64,000 bases of DNA from a virus (Duplodnaviria > Caudoviricetes). Both the position numbers and the translations under genes were made by a program. The stretch is taken from positions 1,205 to 65,204 of IMG/VR virus record IMGVR_UViG_3300021376_000051, one strand, 5' to 3'. The notes under the pieces are model-generated. The model searched no databases and was not told the DNA's origin. It saw nothing but the letters and a program-made list of their open reading frames with translations. Of the stretch, positions 5,696 through 17,000 are shown one piece after another (the first letter of the stretch is position 1; the number at the start of each line of letters is the position of its first letter).

Positions 5696-6125
5696 GTTGT
5701 TTAATAGTATTGTAAAATCTTTCAGGTGTTCCACAGAATACAGGTAAATCATTGAATAGATAGTTTAGTATTCTACTAGAATTATATACACAATCATTTT
5801 TATGTGGTAGATAAAACAAAGTAAACATACCAGAAAGATAACGCATTGCATGATCTTTCTTTGACATATACTTTAATGTTTTTATAAAACCAATAAGATC
5901 TTCCATTTGTTTGTTGGATGTACCAACATACAGTATATTACTAAGTGAATCTAATCTATTATCTGCTTTAGCTGATATAGCTCTTGGATAATTGTATTGA
6001 TCACTGAAGTGAAGTACTGTATTCTCTATCTGAACTGAGCAATGATTGTCCCCGTAAATGCTGGATGCAATCTTGCAGTGTAGTCTGGAGTCCACTACAT
6101 TGTATGTTCTTAGGTAAACTTCCAA
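5673..6125 (-). CDS. Hypothetical protein, possibly permuted papain-like (His early, NDC late)
   Basis: HCSVQI...NDCV...TPE.F pattern; weak. Confidence 0.4.
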   Translation of the reverse strand: MEVYLRTYNVVDSRLHCKIASSIYGDNHCSVQIENTVLHFSDQYNYPRAISAKADNRLDSLSNILYVGTSNKQMEDLIGFIKTLKYMSKKDHAMRYLSGMFTLFYLPHKNDCVYNSSRILNYLFNDLPVFCGTPERFYNTIKQHGIKQNN

Positions 6126-6222
6126 GAGGAATAGCCTTTCTTACTTCTTCATATGGTAAAATCGGACTACCGTCCTCTGAGTAATTGATCCTACGAATAG
6201 TTATGTCTAGTACAGATATCAT

Positions 6223-8124: not shown

Positions 8125-8253
8125 CCACTTCCATAATCTCTTCTGAGATCTTTTCTAGTTGTTCATAAATGTGGGTCATGTCACCCACGGTTTCATTACG
8201 CTTTTCAATGAGGATCATAAGATGATTAAATGTTTTGAAAATCTTTTCCATAG

Positions 8254-8703
8254 TTACCACCATCCAAGTATTACACCGTTGTTATTAGCAACGGCATTGA
8301 ACCAATCAGCAAGCATTTCTGCTTCGCTGAGATCTACACCATAGATAGATTCAGTTACCTCAAAGGCAAGGTGATCTGGGTTTTGCTTTATAAAATGGTC
8401 AACAAACTTAGTAAGCTTATCAGCCATCTTCTTAACAACTTCTTCAGGGATAACAGAAGCATACAGGGTTTGCCCTGTAACGTACTCCACATAGTCATTG
8501 TAGACTTTGCCCCTGAATGAGTTATTATTCATTGAGCAAATCCCAGAACACAACTTGTTGTTCTGAAATAGGCTGTTATCCATGACGGTGAATCCACCGT
8601 CTGAATCTCTTGTACATGCAAAGTTATCAAGTCCCATTGAAATATTCCTCACATTTGTTCTTAAAGAATTCTTCGTTGGATGAGAACAACATATGATATT
8701 CAT
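8254..8703 (-). CDS. Hypothetical phage protein (likely start MGLDN, ~8637)
   Basis: MGLD...SFRGKVY...GWW pattern common in phage early proteins. Confidence 0.65.
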   Translation of the reverse strand: MNIICCSHPTKNSLRTNVRNISMGLDNFACTRDSDGGFTVMDNSLFQNNKLCSGICSMNNNSFRGKVYNDYVEYVTGQTLYASVIPEEVVKKMADKLTKFVDHFIKQNPDHLAFEVTESIYGVDLSEAEMLADWFNAVANNNGVILGWW

Positions 8704-9476: not shown

Positions 9477-9545
9477 TTATTCCTCTGATTCGTAGGAAGA
9501 CATTAGATCTTCCCATTCAGCTACTAGCTTCCAGTCTTCTTCCAT
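9477..9545 (-). CDS. 22-aa acidic micro-ORF
   Basis: AGGGAG RBS followed by MEEDWKLVAEWEDLMSSYESEE*. Confidence 0.4.
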   Translation of the reverse strand: MEEDWKLVAEWEDLMSSYESEE

Positions 9546-9569
9546 GAAACTCCCTGGTTAGGATTACGT

Positions 9570-10200
9570 TAACTTCTTAAAAGACATTCCACACATCTCT
9601 GCGAAGAATGCCATATTGAGGATTCCTAGTTCGACCTCAATCTTTATCAGGGGATGCCTGATAACTTTTGGCTAACTAATATGCCAAGGCTAAGGAAAAG
9701 ACAACCTAAGGGTTAGCCTAGGTTGTCCCATGTAGGTCTTTACATTATCTCTTACCAGAGTAGATATAGACCTTAGACTATCTACTCTTGGTTATCCAAT
9801 AACCGATGAAACGGTACATATTAGGGGTGTTTCATGTCCCTAACTGACTTCCGGCTTGAATTGAGTCCCCCATGTAGATCCGTCAACCTACACGGGACGC
9901 ACTATGCTTATGCTTCTATTTAACCTCGCATAGTCGAGGTATCCCTAATGCCGTGTTACCACCCTAGGATAAACGGGTGACACTTGCCTGCCTAAAGGCC
10001 GGTATAATAACCACAATGGTAGGCTTACCCATTGCTACACCCTTGCGGGGCGTTTATTACCTAGGTTTGCGGCCTAGGTAATATCCTATTAGGTTCTTCC
10101 CGTTGCAACGGTTCACCTCCTTAAGTTTGAAAGATATCCCACAGGTTTCCCCGTGGGATACCAGCTAGACTTGTTTCTAGCACGGGTGGAATGTACCACC
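9570..10200 (-). ncRNA. Large structured RNA with hairpins and tandem H-type pseudoknots
   Basis: Near-continuous stem-loops; GAAA/GCAA tetraloops and G-U pairs point to the minus strand; four hairpin loops have exact downstream complements. Confidence 0.7.
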
Positions 10201-10204
10201 TATT

Positions 10205-10321
10205 TGGCGTGGCCTGGCAGGATTCCAGCGGGTACCTGCATCATCCGATTTACGTGACCTAGCTTGGCCCTACGGGTCCTTTGATCAGATCGGTGCTTTG
10301 AATCGTTAAGCTACAGGCCAC
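10205..10321 (-). ncRNA. Aberrant tRNA-like element (8-bp acceptor stem + GCCA, expanded anticodon and T loops)
   Basis: GTGGCCTG/CAGGCCAC acceptor; GCTT/AAGC D-stem; CCGAT/ATCGG anticodon stem; GCAGG/CCTGC T-stem; encoded CCA. Confidence 0.75.
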
Positions 10322-10329
10322 AAGTGGGG

Positions 10330-10358
10330 ATTTTAACCGTGTTTTAAGCCACAGTCAA
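10330..10358 (-). promoter_or_regulatory. Sigma70-type promoter
   Basis: TTGACT-17 bp-TAAAAT; the predicted start (~10323) lies at the 5' end of the tRNA-like element. Confidence 0.75.
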
Positions 10359-10452
10359 CCACTAGTTTGTTGTCCACAATTTATTAATCCCCTATGGACG
10401 TTTGCTTGGGATACCCTAGTTGGCTTAATCCAACTACCCGGGCAGGGTTGGC

Positions 10453-10539
10453 ACCTAGAATGCCATTAGAAGCCACGGAACTGGTGACCCCTACCATGTG
10501 GGGGTTGAGACAGTGCATGACCTCTAATGGAAGCCTAGG
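10453..10539 (-). ncRNA. Long rod-like RNA hairpin
   Basis: CCATTAGAGGTCATG pairs with CGTGGCTTCTAATGG over 15 bp including G-U pairs (minus strand only), closed by CCTAGG/TCTAGG. Confidence 0.5.
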
Positions 10540-10548
10540 GGCTTGGGA

Positions 10549-10590
10549 TAAAAGCAGGGGCACCCAAGCAAGATTGCCTGGATGCCCCTG
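10549..10590 (-). terminator. Probable intrinsic terminator
   Basis: CAGGGGCATCC...GGGTGCCCCTG followed by CTTTTAT, just after the 10609 stop codon. Confidence 0.55.
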
Positions 10591-10608
10591 TTTCGTCTGT
10601 TTCCAGCA

Positions 10609-10812
10609 TTAAAGCTGGGTTTCAATCAGTCCACGGGCTTCAGCCTCGGCCAAGATCCCCTGAATCTTCGATTCGGAGGTGACCTTACCGCGCTGGACCT
10701 GGATGACCAGATTCAGCAGCTCCTTGTCGCCCAGCCGGGTGTAATCCACGGTGAGCTGCGGACGGGGGAGGGCCACAAGGGCCTTCGACGTAAAGGTGAT
10801 GTTGATGGGCAT
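10609..10812 (-). CDS. Small hypothetical early protein
   Basis: AAAGGA RBS before MPINITF; GC-rich codon usage. Confidence 0.6.
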   Translation of the reverse strand: MPINITFTSKALVALPRPQLTVDYTRLGDKELLNLVIQVQRGKVTSESKIQGILAEAEARGLIETQL

Positions 10813-11073
10813 CACCAATCCTTTCTGGGAACCACTGATGATAGTGAACATTCCCTTTGGGTCCAACATCAGCAGCCACTCGCGCGAGTGATCTTACTGA
10901 TGTAAAATCGCAAGAGTGGCGCGGAGCGAAGCGGAGTCGCCACAACGGGAGGGCAACCAAAGGCAAGCCCTGCGCTGAACGGAGCGTGTGGCTCCGTGAA
11001 GTCCGCTCTAGGGGCACTTATCCCTAGGGGATAATATTATTAGTTAATTGAACCTATGAGTCAGGTTATTGGC

Positions 11074-12963
11074 TTAGCCCATGAAGTTGCGGGAAGCCGT
11101 GAAACGATGCTCGTTGATGGGCTTCCATCCCTCCTTCCAGATCTTGTGGTTGAGGTGGACCTGGTACTGAGCCAGGTTGTTTGCAAGGCGGGGTTCGGTC
11201 ATGTACATCTTCTTGTACAGAACCTTCCACGCCATCTTGACGAAGCGCACACCCGCACAGCAAGTGCCGTGCGAGTCATGGATGGGCGAGTAGGGCAACC
11301 CCTTGATTGCCATGAGCCGAGCGATGCCCGACACATGGGCAGCATCTTCCGAATGGATCACCAACGGCGGGGCTGCCGATGCCTGCTTGATCAACTTACG
11401 CTTCATCAGCGTAACCTTGATCTTGCGGTCCCCAACCGTGAACTCCACACGGTTAGGCTTCTCGTCCTTGTCCCAGTCATGCTGGAACACGAACGACTTG
11501 GCCCCGTCATGGTGATGCCAAGTGAAGATCTGTCCTTTATCGTGTGCCTTGCTGTAGGCATCACGGACAAGGCGGATGAACTCCCGAAGCTTCGGGAACA
11601 TCCGCAACAAGGACTCATGGTACGCCTTGGAAACTTCCAAGGCATCGTCCCATGCGGTATCCAGACGATCCACCCAAACATCAACCCAGTCTGGGTTGAA
11701 TGCCTCTGGGTCCTTGGTCAACAATGCCTTGGCCTTCTTCGGGCAATAGTTATTGCCCTCTGAGATGCGGTCCCAGTCATCCCCGTCCTTGAGGATGAGG
11801 CCCTTGGCCAAGCCGCCCGGTCCTGCGCCATAACCAAGGCGCATGACAAAGTACTTGGCCTCTTCAGGGTGGAAGAACTCCAACAAGGTTCCGCCATAGC
11901 CAGCCTGTGCTGACTTGGCAACCTCCTTGTACAATGACTTCTTCCTCTTGGTGCCACCAAGGTTGGTGTACCAAGCGAGAGTTGAGTCACCGCACAACCC
12001 GGCAATCCTCTGGTATCCGTCTGAAGTACAGTCCTGCTGGAAGATGTAAGAGGTTGCCCCCGTGTCTTCCAGCTCGGCCATTGCCACGGCCAACTCAAAC
12101 CGGGAAATGATTTTGGTTACCTTGCAGCCGAACCAGTCGGCTGCACTCTTGAGATGGGCAATAGCCCCATCTCGCGGGTGGAAAGGCTGTTCCTGGGTAG
12201 GAACAAACCCTTCCTTCTCTGCCTCCGCATGGGTCATCGCCATGCGGACGCGGAAGATCAGTTCACGGTAGTTACGGGGAGTAACCCCATCCTCCTTGGC
12301 AACCGCCCAGCAAGCTGCCAAGTTTGCCGCCTTGTCTTTACCAAGGCTGTAAGCCTTGGCGTAGCCCATCAGGCTACGGACGAGCACACCGCCCATGTGG
12401 GCAAGCGTGTCGGGGAAGTAGAACCTCCTCCGCTTGAAGCAGTAGAACCTAAACACATCGGTTCCCTGCTTTTCGGCCTGTGCCACGGCCTTGAGAGCCG
12501 TGGCAAACTTGAGGCCCCCGCCCTCGGCACCGGGCATCTTCTGCCCAATGCTGTACAGGCGAGAGCTACCGAACGCCTTCAGGAATCGGAGAGCTTCCGG
12601 CCTGAAGGCGTACTGAACTCCCTGAAGGAAGTTCAGGGTGTCCGCATCTGCTGCGGACAACCCGGGCATCTCCTCCCAAACAGGAGGTTCAGCCCGGACA
12701 AGGAGCGCAGTCTTGGGCACAACCCAGATGCGCTCCGACCGATGGCCGTCATCCGTGATCACTTGCTCACGGCTGATGGCGTACTCAGGCCGCAGCAGCA
12801 GCTGCTCCACGGCCTTCTTGGCGGCAGCACCCAGCTCTGCCTCGTCGCCAAGGAACGTGCATGCGTCCTTGGCGACGGCCCAGCACCGCTGGATGGTGAG
12901 CGGGTATGTTACCCGCTGAACCAGCGCGCTGAGCATTGCACTGACAATCTTCTTATTGGTCAT
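11074..12963 (-). CDS. Second, highly divergent T7-superfamily single-subunit RNA polymerase
   Basis: Motif A QQDCTSDGYQR; motif B AKYFVMRLGYG; FTW; PPLVIHSEDAAH; motif C SPIHDSHGT; all in the correct order; GAGG RBS. Confidence 0.85.
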   Translation of the reverse strand: MTNKKIVSAMLSALVQRVTYPLTIQRCWAVAKDACTFLGDEAELGAAAKKAVEQLLLRPEYAISREQVITDDGHRSERIWVVPKTALLVRAEPPVWEEMPGLSAADADTLNFLQGVQYAFRPEALRFLKAFGSSRLYSIGQKMPGAEGGGLKFATALKAVAQAEKQGTDVFRFYCFKRRRFYFPDTLAHMGGVLVRSLMGYAKAYSLGKDKAANLAACWAVAKEDGVTPRNYRELIFRVRMAMTHAEAEKEGFVPTQEQPFHPRDGAIAHLKSAADWFGCKVTKIISRFELAVAMAELEDTGATSYIFQQDCTSDGYQRIAGLCGDSTLAWYTNLGGTKRKKSLYKEVAKSAQAGYGGTLLEFFHPEEAKYFVMRLGYGAGPGGLAKGLILKDGDDWDRISEGNNYCPKKAKALLTKDPEAFNPDWVDVWVDRLDTAWDDALEVSKAYHESLLRMFPKLREFIRLVRDAYSKAHDKGQIFTWHHHDGAKSFVFQHDWDKDEKPNRVEFTVGDRKIKVTLMKRKLIKQASAAPPLVIHSEDAAHVSGIARLMAIKGLPYSPIHDSHGTCCAGVRFVKMAWKVLYKKMYMTEPRLANNLAQYQVHLNHKIWKEGWKPINEHRFTASRNFMG

Positions 12964-12983
12964 GGTTACCTCTAAGAAAACTT

Positions 12984-13067
12984 GTGGTCATTTAAACTGT
13001 TGACCACTTGCAGTTACCCCAAAGGGGAAGCCCAAGGTAAGACACTTAAGCCTTACCTTGGGGTAGT
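12984..13067. repeat. Structured direct repeat, copy 1 (three hairpins)
   Basis: 37-bp core CCCAAGGTAAGACACTTAAGCCTTACCTTGGGGTAGT at 13031-13067 is identical to 13489-13525. Confidence 0.9.
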
Positions 13068-13088
13068 CATCGAACGCAGGAGATCAGG

Positions 13089-13439
13089 TTATCGAACGCA
13101 TGAAATCAGGCGGTCGATATTAAATGACCGCTTCTGTGGAGGCTTTGCCTGTGTGATTTCAATCCCGATCACGCACTTCCCAACCACTTCGATGACAACA
13201 AACTCGTCAAACCTCCGAAGTGAACCGTCGATCTTCATGAATCGGACTAAGTACAGCCGGTCACCAGGTTGAAAGTTGTGCCCGATGAACCAAGGCGTTG
13301 GGTTACGATTGTATCCCGCTGCCTCCTTCTCCTCGTCCGAGGTTGTGAGGAGGATGGCAATAACGCCACCCAGGATGAGGAGGACAGCCGCAAAGCAGAT
13401 GTAGAACAAGATTTCCATCTGAGTCTCGCTTTCAATCAA
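13089..13439 (-). CDS. Membrane-anchored early protein with a small SH3/WYL-like beta domain
   Basis: N-terminal TM helix; F.PGD...RF.K.DG..R...RSFNIDRL. Confidence 0.6.
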   Translation of the reverse strand: MIESETQMEILFYICFAAVLLILGGVIAILLTTSDEEKEAAGYNRNPTPWFIGHNFQPGDRLYLVRFMKIDGSLRRFDEFVVIEVVGKCVIGIEITQAKPPQKRSFNIDRLISCVR

Positions 13440-13444
13440 GGCTA

Positions 13445-13525
13445 GGCCATTTGAACTGTGGCCCTTACAGTTACCCTAAACAGGGAATCCCAAGGTAAGA
13501 CACTTAAGCCTTACCTTGGGGTAGT
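13445..13525. repeat. Structured direct repeat, copy 2
   Basis: Same 37-bp core plus covarying flanking hairpins. Confidence 0.9.
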
Positions 13526-13539
13526 ACTGCGACTATCTA

Positions 13540-14013
13540 TCAACCACCAAACGAAGAATGCTTGTGCTGAGCCGAAACAACCTTTTGATGTGGAATCACC
13601 ATATAAGGTGCTTCCACAAAACCATAAAACTTGTTAACCCACGGCGCGGGAATGCTCATCTTGTCCCATGTAACATAGGCAAAGTACCAATCCCGCATGA
13701 CCCATGTGGATGTAACCACATCCAACAGAGTAACCGCCTCCCCGTTGAACTCGACATAATCCAAGTATGGACCTTCGTCCCACACCCACCCCTTGATGTA
13801 GGTGTTATCTCCGCGAACGATCCGGTGAAGGAGTGAACGAACACTCCAACATCGTCGAACAAGGCGCACCCAGCGAACCCGCTGGTTGCGTTCGCGGCAG
13901 TGCTGCGTTTCTGACGAAACAATGGAGAGAATCAAACGAACCCACAGCTGAATGGTAACAAAGAAGTGCTTCACGATCAAACTCGCTTTCTGGTACAAAT
14001 GTACCAAATTCAA
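13540..14013 (-). CDS. Hypothetical first early protein (start uncertain)
   Basis: Longest minus-strand ORF before the repeat; aromatic-rich C-terminal half. Confidence 0.45.
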   Translation of the reverse strand: MNLVHLYQKASLIVKHFFVTIQLWVRLILSIVSSETQHCRERNQRVRWVRLVRRCWSVRSLLHRIVRGDNTYIKGWVWDEGPYLDYVEFNGEAVTLLDVVTSTWVMRDWYFAYVTWDKMSIPAPWVNKFYGFVEAPYMVIPHQKVVSAQHKHSSFGG

Positions 14014-14097: not shown

Positions 14098-17000
14098 TTA
14101 CAGTAAAGCTTCTGGTGCCTGTATTGGCTGGTTAGCCTTTTGTAAATCTACGGATGTGGAAGTTTGTTGTGGTTGTGGTTGCTGTGGTTGTGGCTGTGGC
14201 AACTGTGGTTGCTGTGGTTGTGGCAATTGTGGTTGCTTAGGTTGTGGCAATTGTGGTTGCTGTAGTCTTTCCGAACTACGCTTCAAGTATTCTTCTAGAT
14301 GTCTTTTTGGGATATTGTTATATTGTGTTTCTTTTTGCAATACTGTTGGATACTCTGGGAACATTTCTCTAATTAGTGCATTTGTTGTATCTTCTACTGG
14401 TGTAGACATAGAATCTATAATTGCTGATATGTCTCCCTTGGCTCCTCTATACGAGCCTCCTGAGGTTGGCGAGCTAGTTCCCCATGCTTGTGCTACGGCT
14501 ACTCTAATTGGTAGTGAGTAACCGTTGGCAATTAGCCAAGGCCCCAATGCTTTATAAGCAGCCCAGGTTTTGGCATCCCAAGTTTCTTGTGGTGATGCAA
14601 ATGCTTCAACCATTTTGTATATATCTCTAAATTGTTGCATTAATCCAGCTTCAGCAACAGAGCTAAGCATACCACCCTGTGATCTACCAGTTGCTGCTGC
14701 TAAACTAGCATTAGCAATTAACCCTAGTATGTTATTACTAAATGCTGGATTACGCATGATGTATCTACCAATTTCGCTGATATTATCTTTTCTATTAAGT
14801 TTTTCTAGAATATCTTCATAACTTAATGTGCCTCTAGCTAAAGCAAGGACAAGATTATAAGTAAAGTCTAGTAAACTTGAAGTTGCAAGCATCATACCCA
14901 TTTTTGGAAAACTAGCTGTACTACCCCTTCTAATTATTTGCTGAGCAACAAACAAAGAAGTATATGATTTATAGAATGTTAGCAGATCGGTAGCTAGGTT
15001 ATCACTTCGTGGGGCATCTAGTGCTTTACGGACAACCATACCTCTTGTTGTGTTAAATTCTTGGAATTTAGCCATAGCTGTTTTAGCTAGACTTAGTTCA
15101 GCTAGTAATTCATTCCTAGTTAAGAATGGTCTTGGTACTGGTCCGGTTGATCTTGGTGAGGTTGAGTCTTTTAGTTCTAGTTCGACATCCATCATATCTT
15201 GGAATAGAATAACACCTCTAAATGTATTCTTTTCTGTTCTAATATATCGCAATGCCTCTAGTCTCTTGCCCTCTAGTAAACCAGATTGAATTATATATAC
15301 AGCAACTTCTTGGTCAATGAAACCTAACTTGTTTTGCCGTAGTAATTCCTTAATTTGGCCAACTGTGGTTGGTTTAATTGCAGCAGCCCTATAGGCATCT
15401 CGGAATCTATTGAGATGTCCCATTCTTTCTAGTTTAACTATTAATCTATTACCAGCAGCATCCATAGCAACTCTTACAGATTTCATTGCACTGGAGTTGG
15501 AGCGGGATCTATTTAGTTTCCATCTATCCCAGAATCCTAATTTTTCAATTAGATCTGAAGATGGATCCATAGATAAGAGATTGCTTGGTAACATTGGTGA
15601 AGTAGTTTCTTCAACAAATGATAAAGTATTTTGAGCAAGTCTTCTAATCTTTCTTTGTCTGATTGGGAAGAATTGTCTTTTTGTTCTTCCACTTGCGTCT
15701 GTTACTTTTCCTGGGAAACCAGAAGTATCTACTATAGCATTTGCCGCATTAACTATACCATCTTCTACCATATCTCTTAGGAATCTAAAGGAAGATATAA
15801 CACCAACAAACGGGTTGCTTTCTTGGAACATTTGCGACATTGTACTCATTACACCCTCTACCATATAAGTAGCTGTGTTGATATTCATACCGAATCGCAT
15901 CAATACTAATGTTTTAGCTCGGTTGTTCCAATCTGCTAGGCTTTGGCCCATGTCTGTGGTATCTCGTACTAGATTACCCTTTGTTTCTAGTAGCGCAAGT
16001 CTAAGTCTATTGATACCTTGACGCATTAAAGCGTTGTTATCAATCTTTAGGTTTCTTTCTCCACGTTGATCAAATAGGGTAATGTTTCTGCTATTGGAAT
16101 TAACTGTTTGATCATTCTCAGCTTCAAACATATCTAAGATCTGAGATATATTGAAGTATGCATTTGGAATACCTGATAGCTGCTGAACCATTTTACGTTC
16201 AATAGCATCATATGCAATCTTACCAGTACCCTTAGCCAATGTTGATAGATTTGTTTCAAACAACTTAAGCATGTTTGGGTTAGTTGATAAGAATACATCT
16301 CTGCTGGTTAGGAATACAGAATCCTGTTTAAATAGCGCAGAAGACTTTGTAACTCTATTTAGAAACTCAATGGTTAGTACATCAGATGGACCCAAGATAC
16401 CAGTCATTTCTCCAGTTAAACCATGTGGCATGTTTCTATCAGAAATACTAAAGTGTTTTCTTACGTCATCTCTTTGGAACTTAGTATTCCATCTTTCGGC
16501 TGTTTTTTCATCTGTAGGAATTAAGAATGCTTTCTTAAAAGCTAGTACAACCATATCCATATTTTGGGTTGTCATCCCACCAAATGTTTTTTCTAAAGTA
16601 ACATCACCATCTCTAGTTTGCCATAGTATTTTATGAATTATTTCCTGCACATCTTTATGGATTCTAACTAAAGATTGTGTAGAAGCATAATCGGCTACTG
16701 TTGTAATACCTGTTCTACCGATTGATTTTTTTGCAGCTGTTCTTACAGCCCAATTTATAATTGCTTCTCTACCACCATTAGCAATAGTATCCTTACCGGA
16801 AATAATATCAGCCACAACCTTGCTTAAAGATGCTTCATCTGCTACTAGCATTTCTTCTGGATTTAGTGGAATTATTCCAGAAGTATATCCTAGTAATGGA
16901 GAGAATGTTGCATACTTTCCATTAGCATCTAACATTGCTATATTCTTACTAACTAGTTCCTTTTTAATTATATCAAACGCATCTCTAGCTAGGTTACGAT

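What the first reader, a model, noticed from the sequence alone, without database searches (positions are those of the whole stretch)
10205..10358. Promoter-driven aberrant tRNA-like RNA with a 32-nt anticodon-loop insertion
A TTGACT-17-TAAAAT promoter points into a 117-nt cloverleaf. It has an 8-bp acceptor stem plus GCCA (CCA encoded, unlike the three normal tRNAs), a normal D-arm, a 13-nt T-loop, and the anticodon loop CTGAT[CAAAGGACCCGTAGGGCCAAGCTAGGTCACGT]AA. Removing the insert would give an Ile(GAT) loop; keeping it gives an extended branched arm. The insert is too short for a group I intron. It may be a tRNA decoy against anticodon nucleases or tRNA-sensing defences, an RNase P processing signal for the downstream RNA, or a protein-spliced tRNA.
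Basis: partly seen in the sequence, partly recalled or inferred. Interest (0 to 1): 0.85.

Follow-up and report, generated by a model that had tools for sequence, protein, structure and literature searches.

The report
tRNA-shaped phage RNA with inserted hairpin
A lake phage carries a real, conserved gene for an RNA that descends from an isoleucine tRNA but almost certainly no longer reads codons, one more of the little-understood tRNA look-alikes of phages.

Summary
On the minus strand a TTGACT-17-TAAAAT promoter (10358-10330) points into a 117-nt cloverleaf (10321-10205). It has an 8-bp acceptor helix plus GCCA, a 13-nt T loop and 32 extra bases in the anticodon loop.

It is not chance or plain decay:
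- Its 22 stem pairs are all Watson-Crick; 0 of 40 shuffled windows gave such a fold.
- Searched alone, it scores 36.4 bits on Rfam's tRNA model (cut-off 29). ARAGORN and whole-window scans miss it.
- An insert-free homologue in a 175-kb phage folds as a clean cloverleaf inside a tRNA/tmRNA cluster. It has the identical odd T arm and three two-sided compensatory stem changes.

The anticodon loop is broken differently in the two lineages, so I read it as a non-decoding RNA derived from tRNA-Ile(GAU). The 32-nt piece also occurs about 80 nt downstream of the homologue.

The whole unit is a swappable cassette: a 94%-identical relative has an unrelated 88 nt behind the same promoter.

Expression, processing and function are not shown. 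The kind is known (phage T5 RNA1, "tRNA-like stable RNA with unknown functions"), and this scan has noted many phage tRNA look-alikes on other DNA, but not this family.

The parts
10330..10358 (-). Host-type (sigma-70-like) promoter TTGACT-17-TAAAAT. It is shared with relatives that carry a different cassette behind it.
   Evidence: 10 of 12 matches. Identical in L002. The block 10327-10434 is present in contigs of runs X14, X19 and X20. The transcription start was not mapped.
10204..10326 (-). Swappable cassette: the whole tRNA-shaped unit plus a few flanking bases. Relatives have an unrelated 88 nt here.
   Evidence: Alignment to L002. Joint 10203->10327 'skips 123, 88 letters between' in an X20 contig. 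Contigs of run X4 hold 10203-10327 between different flanks.
10205..10321 (-). 117-nt tRNA-derived cloverleaf RNA: acceptor 10321-10314/10216-10209, D arm 10311-10295, anticodon stem 10293-10289/10249-10245, T arm 10239-10217, tail GCCA 10208-10205.
   Evidence: Rfam tRNA 36.4 bits over 10320-10209. Homologue L004:2540-2625.
10252..10283 (-). 32-nt insertion after anticodon-like GAU. It contains a small hairpin with a GUA loop. It is homologous to a piece about 80 nt downstream of the insert-free homologue.
   Evidence: blastn matches 28 of 30 bases, E 5e-6, to L004 2705-2734; local alignment score 58 against a shuffle mean of 21.3 (maximum 38.5 of 500). Single copy in the window.
10222..10234 (-). 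13-nt T loop: a canonical-type loop with 6 extra bases after its first U and G in place of C56. Identical in both lineages.
   Evidence: T arm 23 of 23 identical. (alignment to the G002 tRNA-Ile-like gene shows the 6-nt gap).
10130..10200 (-). Three conserved hairpins directly behind the cassette. The last one (10162-10130, 13-bp stem, GAAA loop, then UCUUU) looks like a terminator or processing site and is a repeated element.
   Evidence: Fold (201 nt, z -4.68, 0 of 200 shuffles). Conserved in L002, which has two copies of the last hairpin. Depth 451 in the 10115-10155 bin of X4 against about 20-50 beside it. Not called by the terminator scan.
10555..10590 (-). Terminator-like hairpin that closes the upstream operon (small RNA polymerase and an 86-aa ORF), so the promoter starts a new unit.
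   Evidence: 16-bp stem, 10 G-C pairs, then CUUUUAUCCC.
9862..9939 (-). Pistol self-cleaving ribozyme about 270 nt downstream in the same ORF-free stretch. This is context, not part of the tRNA-shaped unit.
   Evidence: Rfam RF02679, 43.8 bits against a cut-off of 34.5. Conserved in L002.

Best explanation
This is a gene-like unit for a small structured RNA that descends from a tRNA-Ile(GAU)-type gene and no longer decodes.

Shown:
- The four cloverleaf helices are kept by selection.
- The elbow was rebuilt before the two known lineages split: 6 extra bases in the T loop, and no G18 G19 in the D loop.
- The anticodon loop is free to break.
- A GCCA end is encoded in both lineages, although the phages' ordinary tRNAs encode no CCA.
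- The unit moves as a cassette. In a 175-kb phage it lies in a tRNA/tmRNA cluster. Here it sits just behind an early host-type promoter in a T7-like phage, and it brought along a few bases of its former upstream neighbour.

Inferred:
- It is transcribed by host RNA polymerase as the first ~120 nt of an early RNA.
- The tRNA frame makes it a substrate for tRNA end-processing (RNase P, 3' trimming) and keeps it stable. Engineered 'tRNA scaffolds' do this for RNAs grafted into the anticodon arm.
- The invariant odd T loop and the grafted 32-nt hairpin are the surfaces that bind a still unknown protein or RNA partner early in infection.
For: - tRNA descent. Rfam tRNA scores 36.4 bits, full model length. 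The closest tRNA is the Ile(GAU)-like gene of phage record G002: alignment score 73 and 66 against at most 52 for nine other phage tRNAs. GAU followed by AA is kept in both lineages.
- Selection on structure. Of 22 pairs, 18 are the same, 3 changed on both sides and 1 is broken. Seven random stem substitutions keep at least 21 pairs with P about 0.002, and give at least 3 double changes with P about 0.0002. The homologue's minimum-energy fold is the cloverleaf (38% of the ensemble, z -2.83, 1 of 200 shuffles). In this window all 22 pairs are Watson-Crick, and 0 of 40 shuffles gave such a fold.
- Non-decoding. The loop is 39 nt here and 6-8 nt without U33 in the homologue. The D loops differ, while the T arm is 23 of 23 identical.
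- Cassette. L002 is 94% identical on both sides yet has an unrelated 88 nt here. The same junction appears in 3 of the 4 runs laid (X14, X19, X20). X4 holds the insert-bearing unit, with one base different, between flanks like those of L004.
- tRNA-cluster context. ARAGORN finds six tRNAs and a tmRNA within 20 kb of G002; Rfam adds a seventh tRNA match.
- Independent transcription unit. A terminator-like hairpin lies upstream and the promoter is conserved.
- The scaffold principle is described in PMC3753655 (passages read).
Against: - There are only two independent sequences, plus one near-identical copy in X4. The three IMG/VR contigs G001-G003 are 100% identical here.
- No expression, end-mapping or partner data exist for this variant. 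The RNA-library contigs carry the other cassette and could be DNA carry-over.
- The 23 of 23 identity of the T arm could reflect recent transfer rather than constraint.
- The homologue is not scored as tRNA by Rfam at E <= 10.
- The window sequence is no more stable than shuffles, and its minimum-energy fold is a rod.
- The distance from the helix end to CCA differs by one base between lineages (GCCA against AGCCA).
- The unit is dispensable at this site.
- Neighbouring proteins gave no functional clue.
Confidence: 0.5

Rival explanations
1. Decaying pseudo-tRNA. A dead copy of a phage tRNA-Ile gene, damaged by insertions and carried along by recombination in tRNA clusters, with no function of its own.
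For: - ARAGORN never calls it.
- The T, D and anticodon loops are all aberrant.
- The family is tiny. Five viral-contig scans for its parts found only one other sequence type, and the two scans of prokaryote genomes found none.
- Relatives do without it.
Against: - All 22 pairs are intact here and 21 of 22 in the homologue, with three two-sided compensations (P about 0.0002-0.002 under random stem substitution).
- The T-loop insertion is shared and unchanged, while the D loop, variable region and anticodon loop diverged.
- The encoded GCCA is kept in both.
Confidence: 0.17
2. Decoy or sponge for a host tRNA-directed defence or tRNA-binding factor. It would mimic the tRNA body or its CCA end, not the anticodon, and be made early to protect real tRNAs or blind a sensor.
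For: - It sits in an early-promoter slot whose content differs between 94%-identical phages, as expected for arms-race cargo.
- The acceptor helix and GCCA are conserved.
- Phage tRNAs that counter tRNA-cleaving defences are described in PMC10264068 and PMC11555353, and tRNA-tail cleavage by Cas12a3 in PMC12851939. I saw only the search listing and the start of the abstracts.
Against: - The anticodon loop is not conserved, so it is not an anticodon-nuclease mimic.
- The rebuilt elbow makes it a poor mimic of a whole tRNA.
- No defence or host context is known; the host is unidentified.
Confidence: 0.15
3. Processing punctuation only. A tRNA-shaped signal whose sole job is to direct RNase P or RNase Z cuts that free neighbouring RNAs.
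For: In L004 it starts 4 nt after another tRNA-like RNA and lies inside a tRNA/tmRNA cluster. Here it heads a long structured leader that also holds a pistol ribozyme.
Against: - Relatives with the same downstream leader have no tRNA-shaped unit there.
- At a transcript's 5' end there is nothing upstream to release.
- It does not explain the invariant odd T loop or the grafted piece.
Confidence: 0.1
4. Working tRNA-Ile(GAU) with a small intron. The 32 nt are removed by an unknown phage or host activity, leaving the perfect 7-nt loop CUGAUAA.
For: Removing 10283-10252 leaves a canonical loop with U33, GAU and A37 (read from the sequence). The tRNA model scores above its cut-off despite two insertions.
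Against: - 32 nt is too short for a group I intron, and Rfam reports no intron match.
- There is no bulge-helix-bulge, and the site is after position 36 or 35, not 37/38.
- The T loop has 13 nt with G at position 56, and the D loop has no GG.
- The insert-free homologue has a defective loop, so the anticodon is not under selection.
Confidence: 0.03

Closest known systems
Phage T5 RNA1 (AY543070.1 30501-30644, annotated misc_RNA 'tRNA-like stable RNA with unknown functions')
   Same: - A phage-encoded RNA with a tRNA frame and an enlarged arm where the anticodon arm should be. My fold of it shows an acceptor helix, a D arm, a ~59-nt central arm, an extra hairpin and a T arm.
- It lies in a tRNA cluster, as the homologue does in G002.
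- Its function is unknown.
   Different: - No sequence similarity: local alignment is no better than shuffles, with a fraction of 0.80 and 0.40 of shuffles scoring as high.
- T5 RNA1 has a leucine-type frame with a canonical T loop. This RNA has an Ile-type class I frame with a 13-nt T loop and an encoded GCCA.
- In this window the RNA sits behind its own early promoter.
Phage T4 RNA C and RNA D (species 1 and 2 RNAs of the T4 tRNA cluster)
   Same: Small stable RNAs co-encoded and co-processed with phage tRNAs, of unknown function. One search listed nothing that held the phrase 'species 1 RNA', and the one paper opened did not mention it.
   Different: No sequence comparison was made. T4 is not a T7-like phage, and no cassette behaviour is known to me.
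Canonical tRNA-Ile(GAU) (Rfam RF00005)
   Same: Acceptor, D, anticodon and T helices in tRNA register; U8 A9; D stem and flanks as in many phage tRNAs; GAU at the anticodon position; 36.4 bits on the model.
   Different: - 32 nt in the anticodon loop and 6 extra nt in the T loop.
- No G18 G19.
- An extra base pair below the acceptor stem, and a G between the discriminator position and CCA.
- Not found by ARAGORN.
Engineered 'tRNA scaffold' for recombinant RNA (Ponchon and Dardel approach; PMC3753655)
   Same: The design is the same: acceptor stem, T and D arms kept, and a foreign hairpin placed in the anticodon arm. The paper states that such RNAs are recognised and processed by the cell and escape degradation (passages read).
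   Different: That scaffold is man-made and keeps a canonical elbow. Here the elbow is altered, and stability and processing are only inferred.
Anticodon-less tRNA-shaped phage RNAs noted earlier in this scan (for example e1-5759839, e1-6105288, e1-5916872; AI notes)
   Same: The same general kind: a phage RNA with a tRNA frame, no usable anticodon and private inserts. One note describes inserts in both the anticodon and the T loop.
   Different: Those notes describe leucine-type frames and large families. I did not compare sequences with them.
tRNA genes with group I introns in the anticodon loop; tmRNA tRNA-like domain
   Same: An interrupted anticodon loop, or a tRNA-like frame with a long arm in place of the anticodon arm.
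   Different: - 32 nt is far too short for a group I intron, and no Rfam intron match was found.
- No tmRNA was called by ARAGORN or by Rfam on the window, and there is no reading frame.

Membership tests
Canonical tRNA (Rfam RF00005) | Covariance-model score at or above the gathering score (29 bits) | tested here: met
   36.4 bits, model positions 1-71, E 1.2e-6, when 141 nt were searched. Not reported in the 64-kb and 2.5-kb searches; I infer this is a filter effect. The homologue L004:2540-2625 is not reported at E <= 10.
Canonical tRNA (Rfam RF00005) | 7-nt anticodon loop with U33 and a usable anticodon | tested here: not met
   The loop is 39 nt here. The homologue has 6 nt (or 8 nt on a 4-bp stem) without U33.
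Canonical tRNA (Rfam RF00005) | Elbow nucleotides: G18 G19 in the D loop and a 7-nt T loop with C56 | tested here: not met
   The D loops AACGAUUCA and AACAGACCAA have no GG. The T loop has 13 nt, with G where the G002 tRNA has C56.
Canonical tRNA (Rfam RF00005) | Detected by a tRNA gene finder | tested here: not met
   ARAGORN at default, with introns, and at 90% and 80% thresholds finds nothing at this site. It finds nothing at L004:2540-2625 either. tRNAscan-SE was not available.
tRNA gene with a group I intron | An intron of a few hundred nt with the group I core | tested here: not met
   The insert is 32 nt. No Rfam intron family matches at the site.
tRNA with an archaeal/eukaryal-type intron | Bulge-helix-bulge motif at position 37/38 | tested here: not met
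   The constrained fold shows one long imperfect helix with bulges on the 3' strand only. The insert follows position 36, or 35 by the ambiguity of one U.
tmRNA | tRNA-like domain plus tag reading frame and pseudoknots | tested here: not met
   ARAGORN tmRNA modes find nothing, and there is no Rfam tmRNA match in the window. A genuine tmRNA lies about 1 kb away from the homologue in L004.
Phage 'tRNA-like stable RNAs' (T5 RNA1 kind) | tRNA-like frame that is not a decoding tRNA, encoded by a phage | tested here: met
   frame; phage; the T5 annotation that defines the kind.
Phage 'tRNA-like stable RNAs' (T5 RNA1 kind) | Located in the phage tRNA gene cluster | tested here: inconclusive
   Met for the homologue in G002 and, judged from its upstream flank, for the X4 copy. 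Not met in this window, where the three tRNAs lie 53 kb away.
Phage 'tRNA-like stable RNAs' (T5 RNA1 kind) | Accumulates as a discrete stable RNA in infected cells | not testable with these tools
   The single read-laying run used contigs only. None of the 4 runs laid had an RNA contig carrying this variant.
Phage 'tRNA-like stable RNAs' (T5 RNA1 kind) | Sequence homology to T5 RNA1 | tested here: not met
   Local alignment is no better than shuffles. This is a kind, not one sequence family.

The most novel reading that the evidence does not exclude
Phages use a tRNA chassis as a natural display scaffold, and an early-promoter slot as a docking site for exchangeable small-RNA cargo. Here a portable 32-nt hairpin, which elsewhere lies outside the tRNA-shaped unit, has been grafted into the anticodon arm of a non-decoding tRNA-Ile derivative. 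It would then be made in quantity at the very start of infection to capture a host factor such as a defence sensor or nuclease.
Probability: 0.15. Interest if true: 0.8.

Novelty: new variant of a known kind. Interest (0 to 1): 0.5.

Why it matters
Stable tRNA look-alikes have been annotated in model phages such as T5 without a known job. This case adds three handles for experiments:
- A natural pair of forms, with and without the anticodon-loop graft.
- A natural 'knock-out': a 94%-identical phage with another cassette behind the same promoter.
- An invariant, rebuilt T loop that points to the surface under selection.

If the scaffold or decoy reading holds, it would show that the tRNA fold is reused by phages as a chassis for other RNA functions. 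It would also mean gene finders systematically miss such genes: this one is invisible to ARAGORN and to routine Rfam scans.

Tried and rejected
1. Close relatives through the neighbouring 629-aa RNA polymerase. Viral contigs gave none. The metagenome scan gave L002 and L003; L003 ends before the site.

2. INPHARED phages: no match to 9500-13100.

3. More family members. In viral contigs:
- The exact 40-mer found none.
- The T-arm 23-mer found 2 loci.
- The D-arm pattern found 51 loci. Three rows are this family, all the same sequence. The rest look mostly like ordinary tRNAs plus some odd ones (by eye, not counted).
- The insert motif found 3 loci of the same sequence.
- The T-loop 17-mer found one extra hit, inside a coding region with no stems.

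In prokaryote genomes the T-arm 23-mer found none. The insert motif found one hit inside an ORF of a soil MAG with no further similarity, which I take as chance. Whole records G000 and G002 hold one copy each, plus one 3-mismatch hit not followed.

4. The insert as a phage-polymerase promoter. I recalled a resemblance to a cyanophage promoter (letters not given, not verified). It is a single copy in the window, no better than chance at 2 mismatches, and absent from L002. Not supported.

5. The piece downstream of the L004 homologue as a decayed second copy of the insert-bearing form. The flanks of the motif are no more alike than shuffles (fractions 0.70 and 0.21). Not supported. Only about 45 nt (the insert plus the 3' anticodon-stem strand) are shared.

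6. The replacement cassette of L002 as another structured RNA: z -0.01. Not supported.

7. A conserved protein partner. Of 12 ORFs of L004, one (5803-6213) has a relative in the window (8257-8637, 33% identity, E 2e-20), but L002, which lacks the unit, has it too. No Pfam or PHROG clue in the neighbours.

8. Runs with small word shares were not used for habitat claims beyond 'lake/freshwater' for the three strong holders.

9. RNA-library contigs (X19, X20) cover the promoter block and the downstream leader but carry the other cassette. They say nothing on transcription of this unit.

10. Supplementary files of papers were not asked for. No claim here rests on them.

11. A covariance model of the family was not built. 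MAFFT misaligned the two sequences, and no viral collection can be searched with such a model.
Full report
**Setting**

The window is 64 kb of a 65.2-kb IMG/VR virus record, estimated 96% complete. Lake-water metagenomes hold the stretch searched (window 9850-10420): three runs have 0.79-0.98 of its sampled words.

All large genes lie on the minus strand. They include an 811-aa T7-type RNA polymerase, DNA polymerase, primase-helicase, portal, capsid, tail proteins and terminase, so this is a T7-like podovirus with extra cargo.

The finding lies in a stretch of 54% G+C (10000-14000) in a 37-41% backbone. That stretch also encodes a second, 629-aa T7-superfamily polymerase.

Downstream of that gene and an 86-aa ORF comes a strong terminator-like hairpin (10590-10555). 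Then comes the promoter-like site, and then about 800 nt without a convincing ORF. That ORF-free stretch contains a pistol ribozyme above Rfam's cut-off (9939-9862).

**The observation**

- TTGACT-17-TAAAAT at 10358-10330.
- A 117-nt cloverleaf at 10321-10205.
- An 8-bp acceptor helix followed by GCCA.
- A 4-bp D stem and a 5-bp anticodon stem.
- A loop reading CUGAU, 32 nt, AA.
- A 5-bp T stem with a 13-nt loop.
- Three ordinary tRNAs that encode no CCA.

Routine tools do not see the element. ARAGORN fails in every mode tried. Rfam scans of 64 kb and of 2.5 kb report nothing there.

When only 141 nt are searched, Rfam's tRNA model matches over its whole length at 36.4 bits, against a cut-off of 29. 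It treats 35 nt in the anticodon loop and 11 nt in the T loop as insertions. I take the earlier misses to be an effect of the speed filters; this is an inference.

Thermodynamics alone is weak. The minimum-energy fold is a rod closed by the acceptor helix (-38.6 kcal/mol) and the cloverleaf costs -37.9 kcal/mol. The z-score is -1.37.

A direct chance test is clearer. A relaxed-cloverleaf scan of the window finds two real tRNAs, this element with no G-U pair, and G-U-laden artefacts in a TG repeat. Forty shuffled windows gave 0.5 hits on average, and none had a hit without G-U pairs.

**Relatives: the unit is a cassette**

The only long relative of the phage, L002, is an 11-kb metagenome contig with 94% identity. 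It has the same promoter and the same three hairpins downstream. Between them it has an unrelated 88 nt instead of the 123 nt that hold the cloverleaf. The breakpoints fall right after TAAAATCCC and right before the first hairpin.

Contigs of public runs agree:
- In X20, an RNA library, a 2455-nt contig joins 10203 to 10327 with 88 other letters between.
- X14 and X19 show the same replacement as loose ends.
- In X4 two overlapping contigs cover 10203-10327 with one base different, but both flanks are unlike the window.

The upstream flank in X4 is, read on the minus strand, a T arm plus acceptor 3' strand. It matches L004 2511-2534. So the cloverleaf unit exists in at least two contexts, and the promoter is not part of it.

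The window's copy still begins with the few bases that, in the other context, end the upstream RNA gene. This suggests it was captured from a tRNA-cluster setting; this is an inference.

**The insert-free homologue**

A search for the odd T arm found three IMG/VR contigs. They are 100% identical over the shared loci. One of them, G002, is a complete 174.6-kb phage.

There the unit is 86 nt (L004:2540-2625). Its minimum-energy fold is a clean cloverleaf (38% of the ensemble, z -2.83). It lies between tRNA-Ser and a genuine tmRNA, in a cluster where ARAGORN calls six tRNAs (Gly, Arg, Lys, two Leu, Ser) and Rfam matches a seventh. It starts 4 nt after another tRNA-like RNA.

The comparison with the window copy is the core evidence:
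- Of 22 stem pairs, 18 are the same.
- Three changed on both sides: acceptor pair 4 from G-C to A-U, acceptor pair 6 from C-G to U-A, anticodon-stem pair 4 from A-U to G-C.
- One, the loop-closing pair, is broken.
- The T arm, including its 13-nt loop, is 23 of 23 identical.
- The D stem is identical.
- The D loop, variable region and anticodon loop differ.

If seven substitutions fell at random on the stems, at least 21 of 22 pairs would survive with P about 0.002. Three double compensations would arise with P about 0.0002.

The odd T loop is shared, so it predates the split. The helices have therefore been kept by selection in an RNA that already had a rebuilt elbow.

**What it descends from, and why it probably does not decode**

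Among ten phage tRNAs at hand, the best match of both forms is a gene of G002 whose second anticodon-type loop reads CAGAUAA. Alignment scores were 73 and 66, against at most 52 for the others. Against that gene the T loop is the usual loop with six bases inserted after its first U, and G in place of C56.

Both forms keep GAU followed by AA at the anticodon position. The loop itself is 39 nt here and 6-8 nt without U33 in the homologue. Neither D loop has GG.

So the anticodon loop is the least constrained part and the T loop the most constrained. That is the reverse of a decoding tRNA. I conclude, as an inference, that it is a non-decoding derivative of a tRNA-Ile(GAU)-type gene.

A GCCA end is encoded in both forms, although their phages' ordinary tRNAs lack CCA. 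This would make sense if the end matters but the rebuilt elbow keeps the CCA-adding enzyme away. That is speculation, and the one-base difference (GCCA against AGCCA) weakens it.

**The 32-nt piece**

It is not private to this copy. L004 has a homologous stretch (28 of 30 bases; blastn E 5e-6) about 80 nt downstream of its own cloverleaf. The local alignment of about 45 nt scores 58, against a shuffle mean of 21 and a maximum of 38.5.

It folds into a small hairpin with a GUA loop in both. In the window it also extends the anticodon stem into one long imperfect arm.

The sequences around it are no more alike than shuffles. The window has only one copy. Prokaryote genomes gave only one hit, which I take as chance.

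I therefore read it as a portable piece that has been grafted into the anticodon loop. How it moved is open.

**How it most likely works**

The steps that are shown and the steps that are inferred are listed under Best explanation. In short:
- A host-type promoter behind a terminator starts an early RNA whose first ~120 nt are this unit.
- The tRNA frame would give it defined ends and stability. This is the principle used in engineered tRNA scaffolds, where a foreign hairpin replaces the anticodon loop (PMC3753655, passages read).
- The invariant T loop and the grafted hairpin would be the working surfaces for an unknown partner.

Rivals are a dead pseudo-tRNA, a decoy for tRNA-directed defences, a mere processing signal, and a spliced working tRNA-Ile. 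Each is set out with its evidence under Rival explanations. None is excluded by experiment. Expression of this variant is not shown.

**Comparison with what is known**

The kind is known. The T5 record annotates RNA1 as 'tRNA-like stable RNA with unknown functions', in its tRNA cluster. My fold of it shows a tRNA frame with an enlarged central arm, but it has no sequence similarity to this RNA. T4 RNA C and D are recalled, not verified here.

Papers on phage tRNAs against tRNA-cleaving defences exist (listing and abstract starts only). Searches listed nothing in their titles or abstract starts that describes a phage tRNA-like RNA with an anticodon-loop graft or a 13-nt T loop. These were word searches of open-access text only.

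Earlier notes of this scan describe many anticodon-less tRNA-shaped phage RNAs on other DNA. One describes the 206-nt alanine-type RNA that neighbours the homologue.

**Verdict**

This is a real, selected, tRNA-derived RNA unit: a new small family and a new variant of a known but unexplained kind. Its special points are the rebuilt and invariant T loop, the grafted portable hairpin, and its behaviour as a cassette behind an early promoter. Function is unknown.

Interest is moderate (0.5). It gives good experimental handles, but there are only two lineages and no expression data.

Noticed in passing
window 9862-9939 (-); L002 about 8160-8235: Pistol self-cleaving ribozyme (Rfam RF02679, 43.8 bits against a cut-off of 34.5) in the same ORF-free leader, about 270 nt downstream of the cloverleaf. 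It is conserved in the relative.
   Followed up: partly
window 10130-10162 (-); L002 7686-7718 and 8003-8037: A 33-nt hairpin (13-bp stem, GAAA loop, then UCUUU) occurs once here and twice in L002, each time ending a variable segment. In run X4 its depth bin is 451 against about 20-50 beside it, with several different flanks. It is therefore a high-copy, portable hairpin in that lake sample. It could be a terminator, a processing site or a recombination boundary.
   Followed up: partly
window 11074-12963 (-), and 10000-14000: A second, 629-aa T7-superfamily RNA polymerase lies in a 54% G+C island of a 37-41% G+C phage that also has a normal 811-aa polymerase. Only two relatives were found among 5.8 billion proteins (94% and 52% identity).
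   Followed up: partly
L065 14642-14739 (-) (record G002): A tRNA (Rfam 59.2 bits, missed by ARAGORN) with 27 extra nt. These look like a duplicated D-stem strand plus anticodon arm, giving two tandem anticodon-type loops, CUUAUAA and CAGAUAA.
   Followed up: partly
L004 about 2331-2535: Directly upstream of the insert-free homologue, a tRNA-like RNA of about 205 nt with a G3-U70 acceptor stem, a D arm, an ACG-type loop and about 140 nt before a canonical T arm (read by eye). The copy in run X4 is preceded by the same 3' end.
   Followed up: partly
window 8254-8703 (-); L004 5803-6213; L002 9478-9858: The only protein shared between the T7-like phage and the 175-kb phage locus: 33% identity, E 2e-20, with no Pfam or PHROG family. 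It is also present in L002, which lacks the cloverleaf.
   Followed up: no
window 10061-10127 (-): A strong Shine-Dalgarno-like AAGGAGGUGA followed by a TTG and a 15-codon frame inside the structured leader. It is not conserved in L002, where this segment is replaced. Also noted as e1-6249024.
   Followed up: no
window 13025-13067 and 13483-13525: A 43-nt hairpin-forming repeat (98% identical copies) upstream of the small polymerase gene.
   Followed up: no
loci L009/L011, L021, L023, L024, L028, L037, L038, L052: Several other viral contigs found through the common tRNA D-arm pattern carry tRNA-like genes with long inserts or non-canonical T arms. Judged by eye only.
   Followed up: no
window 14165-14265 (+): A TGTGGTTG-type repeat at the 3' end of the 4172-aa ORF produces false cloverleaves made almost entirely of G-U pairs in a relaxed scan.
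   Followed up: no
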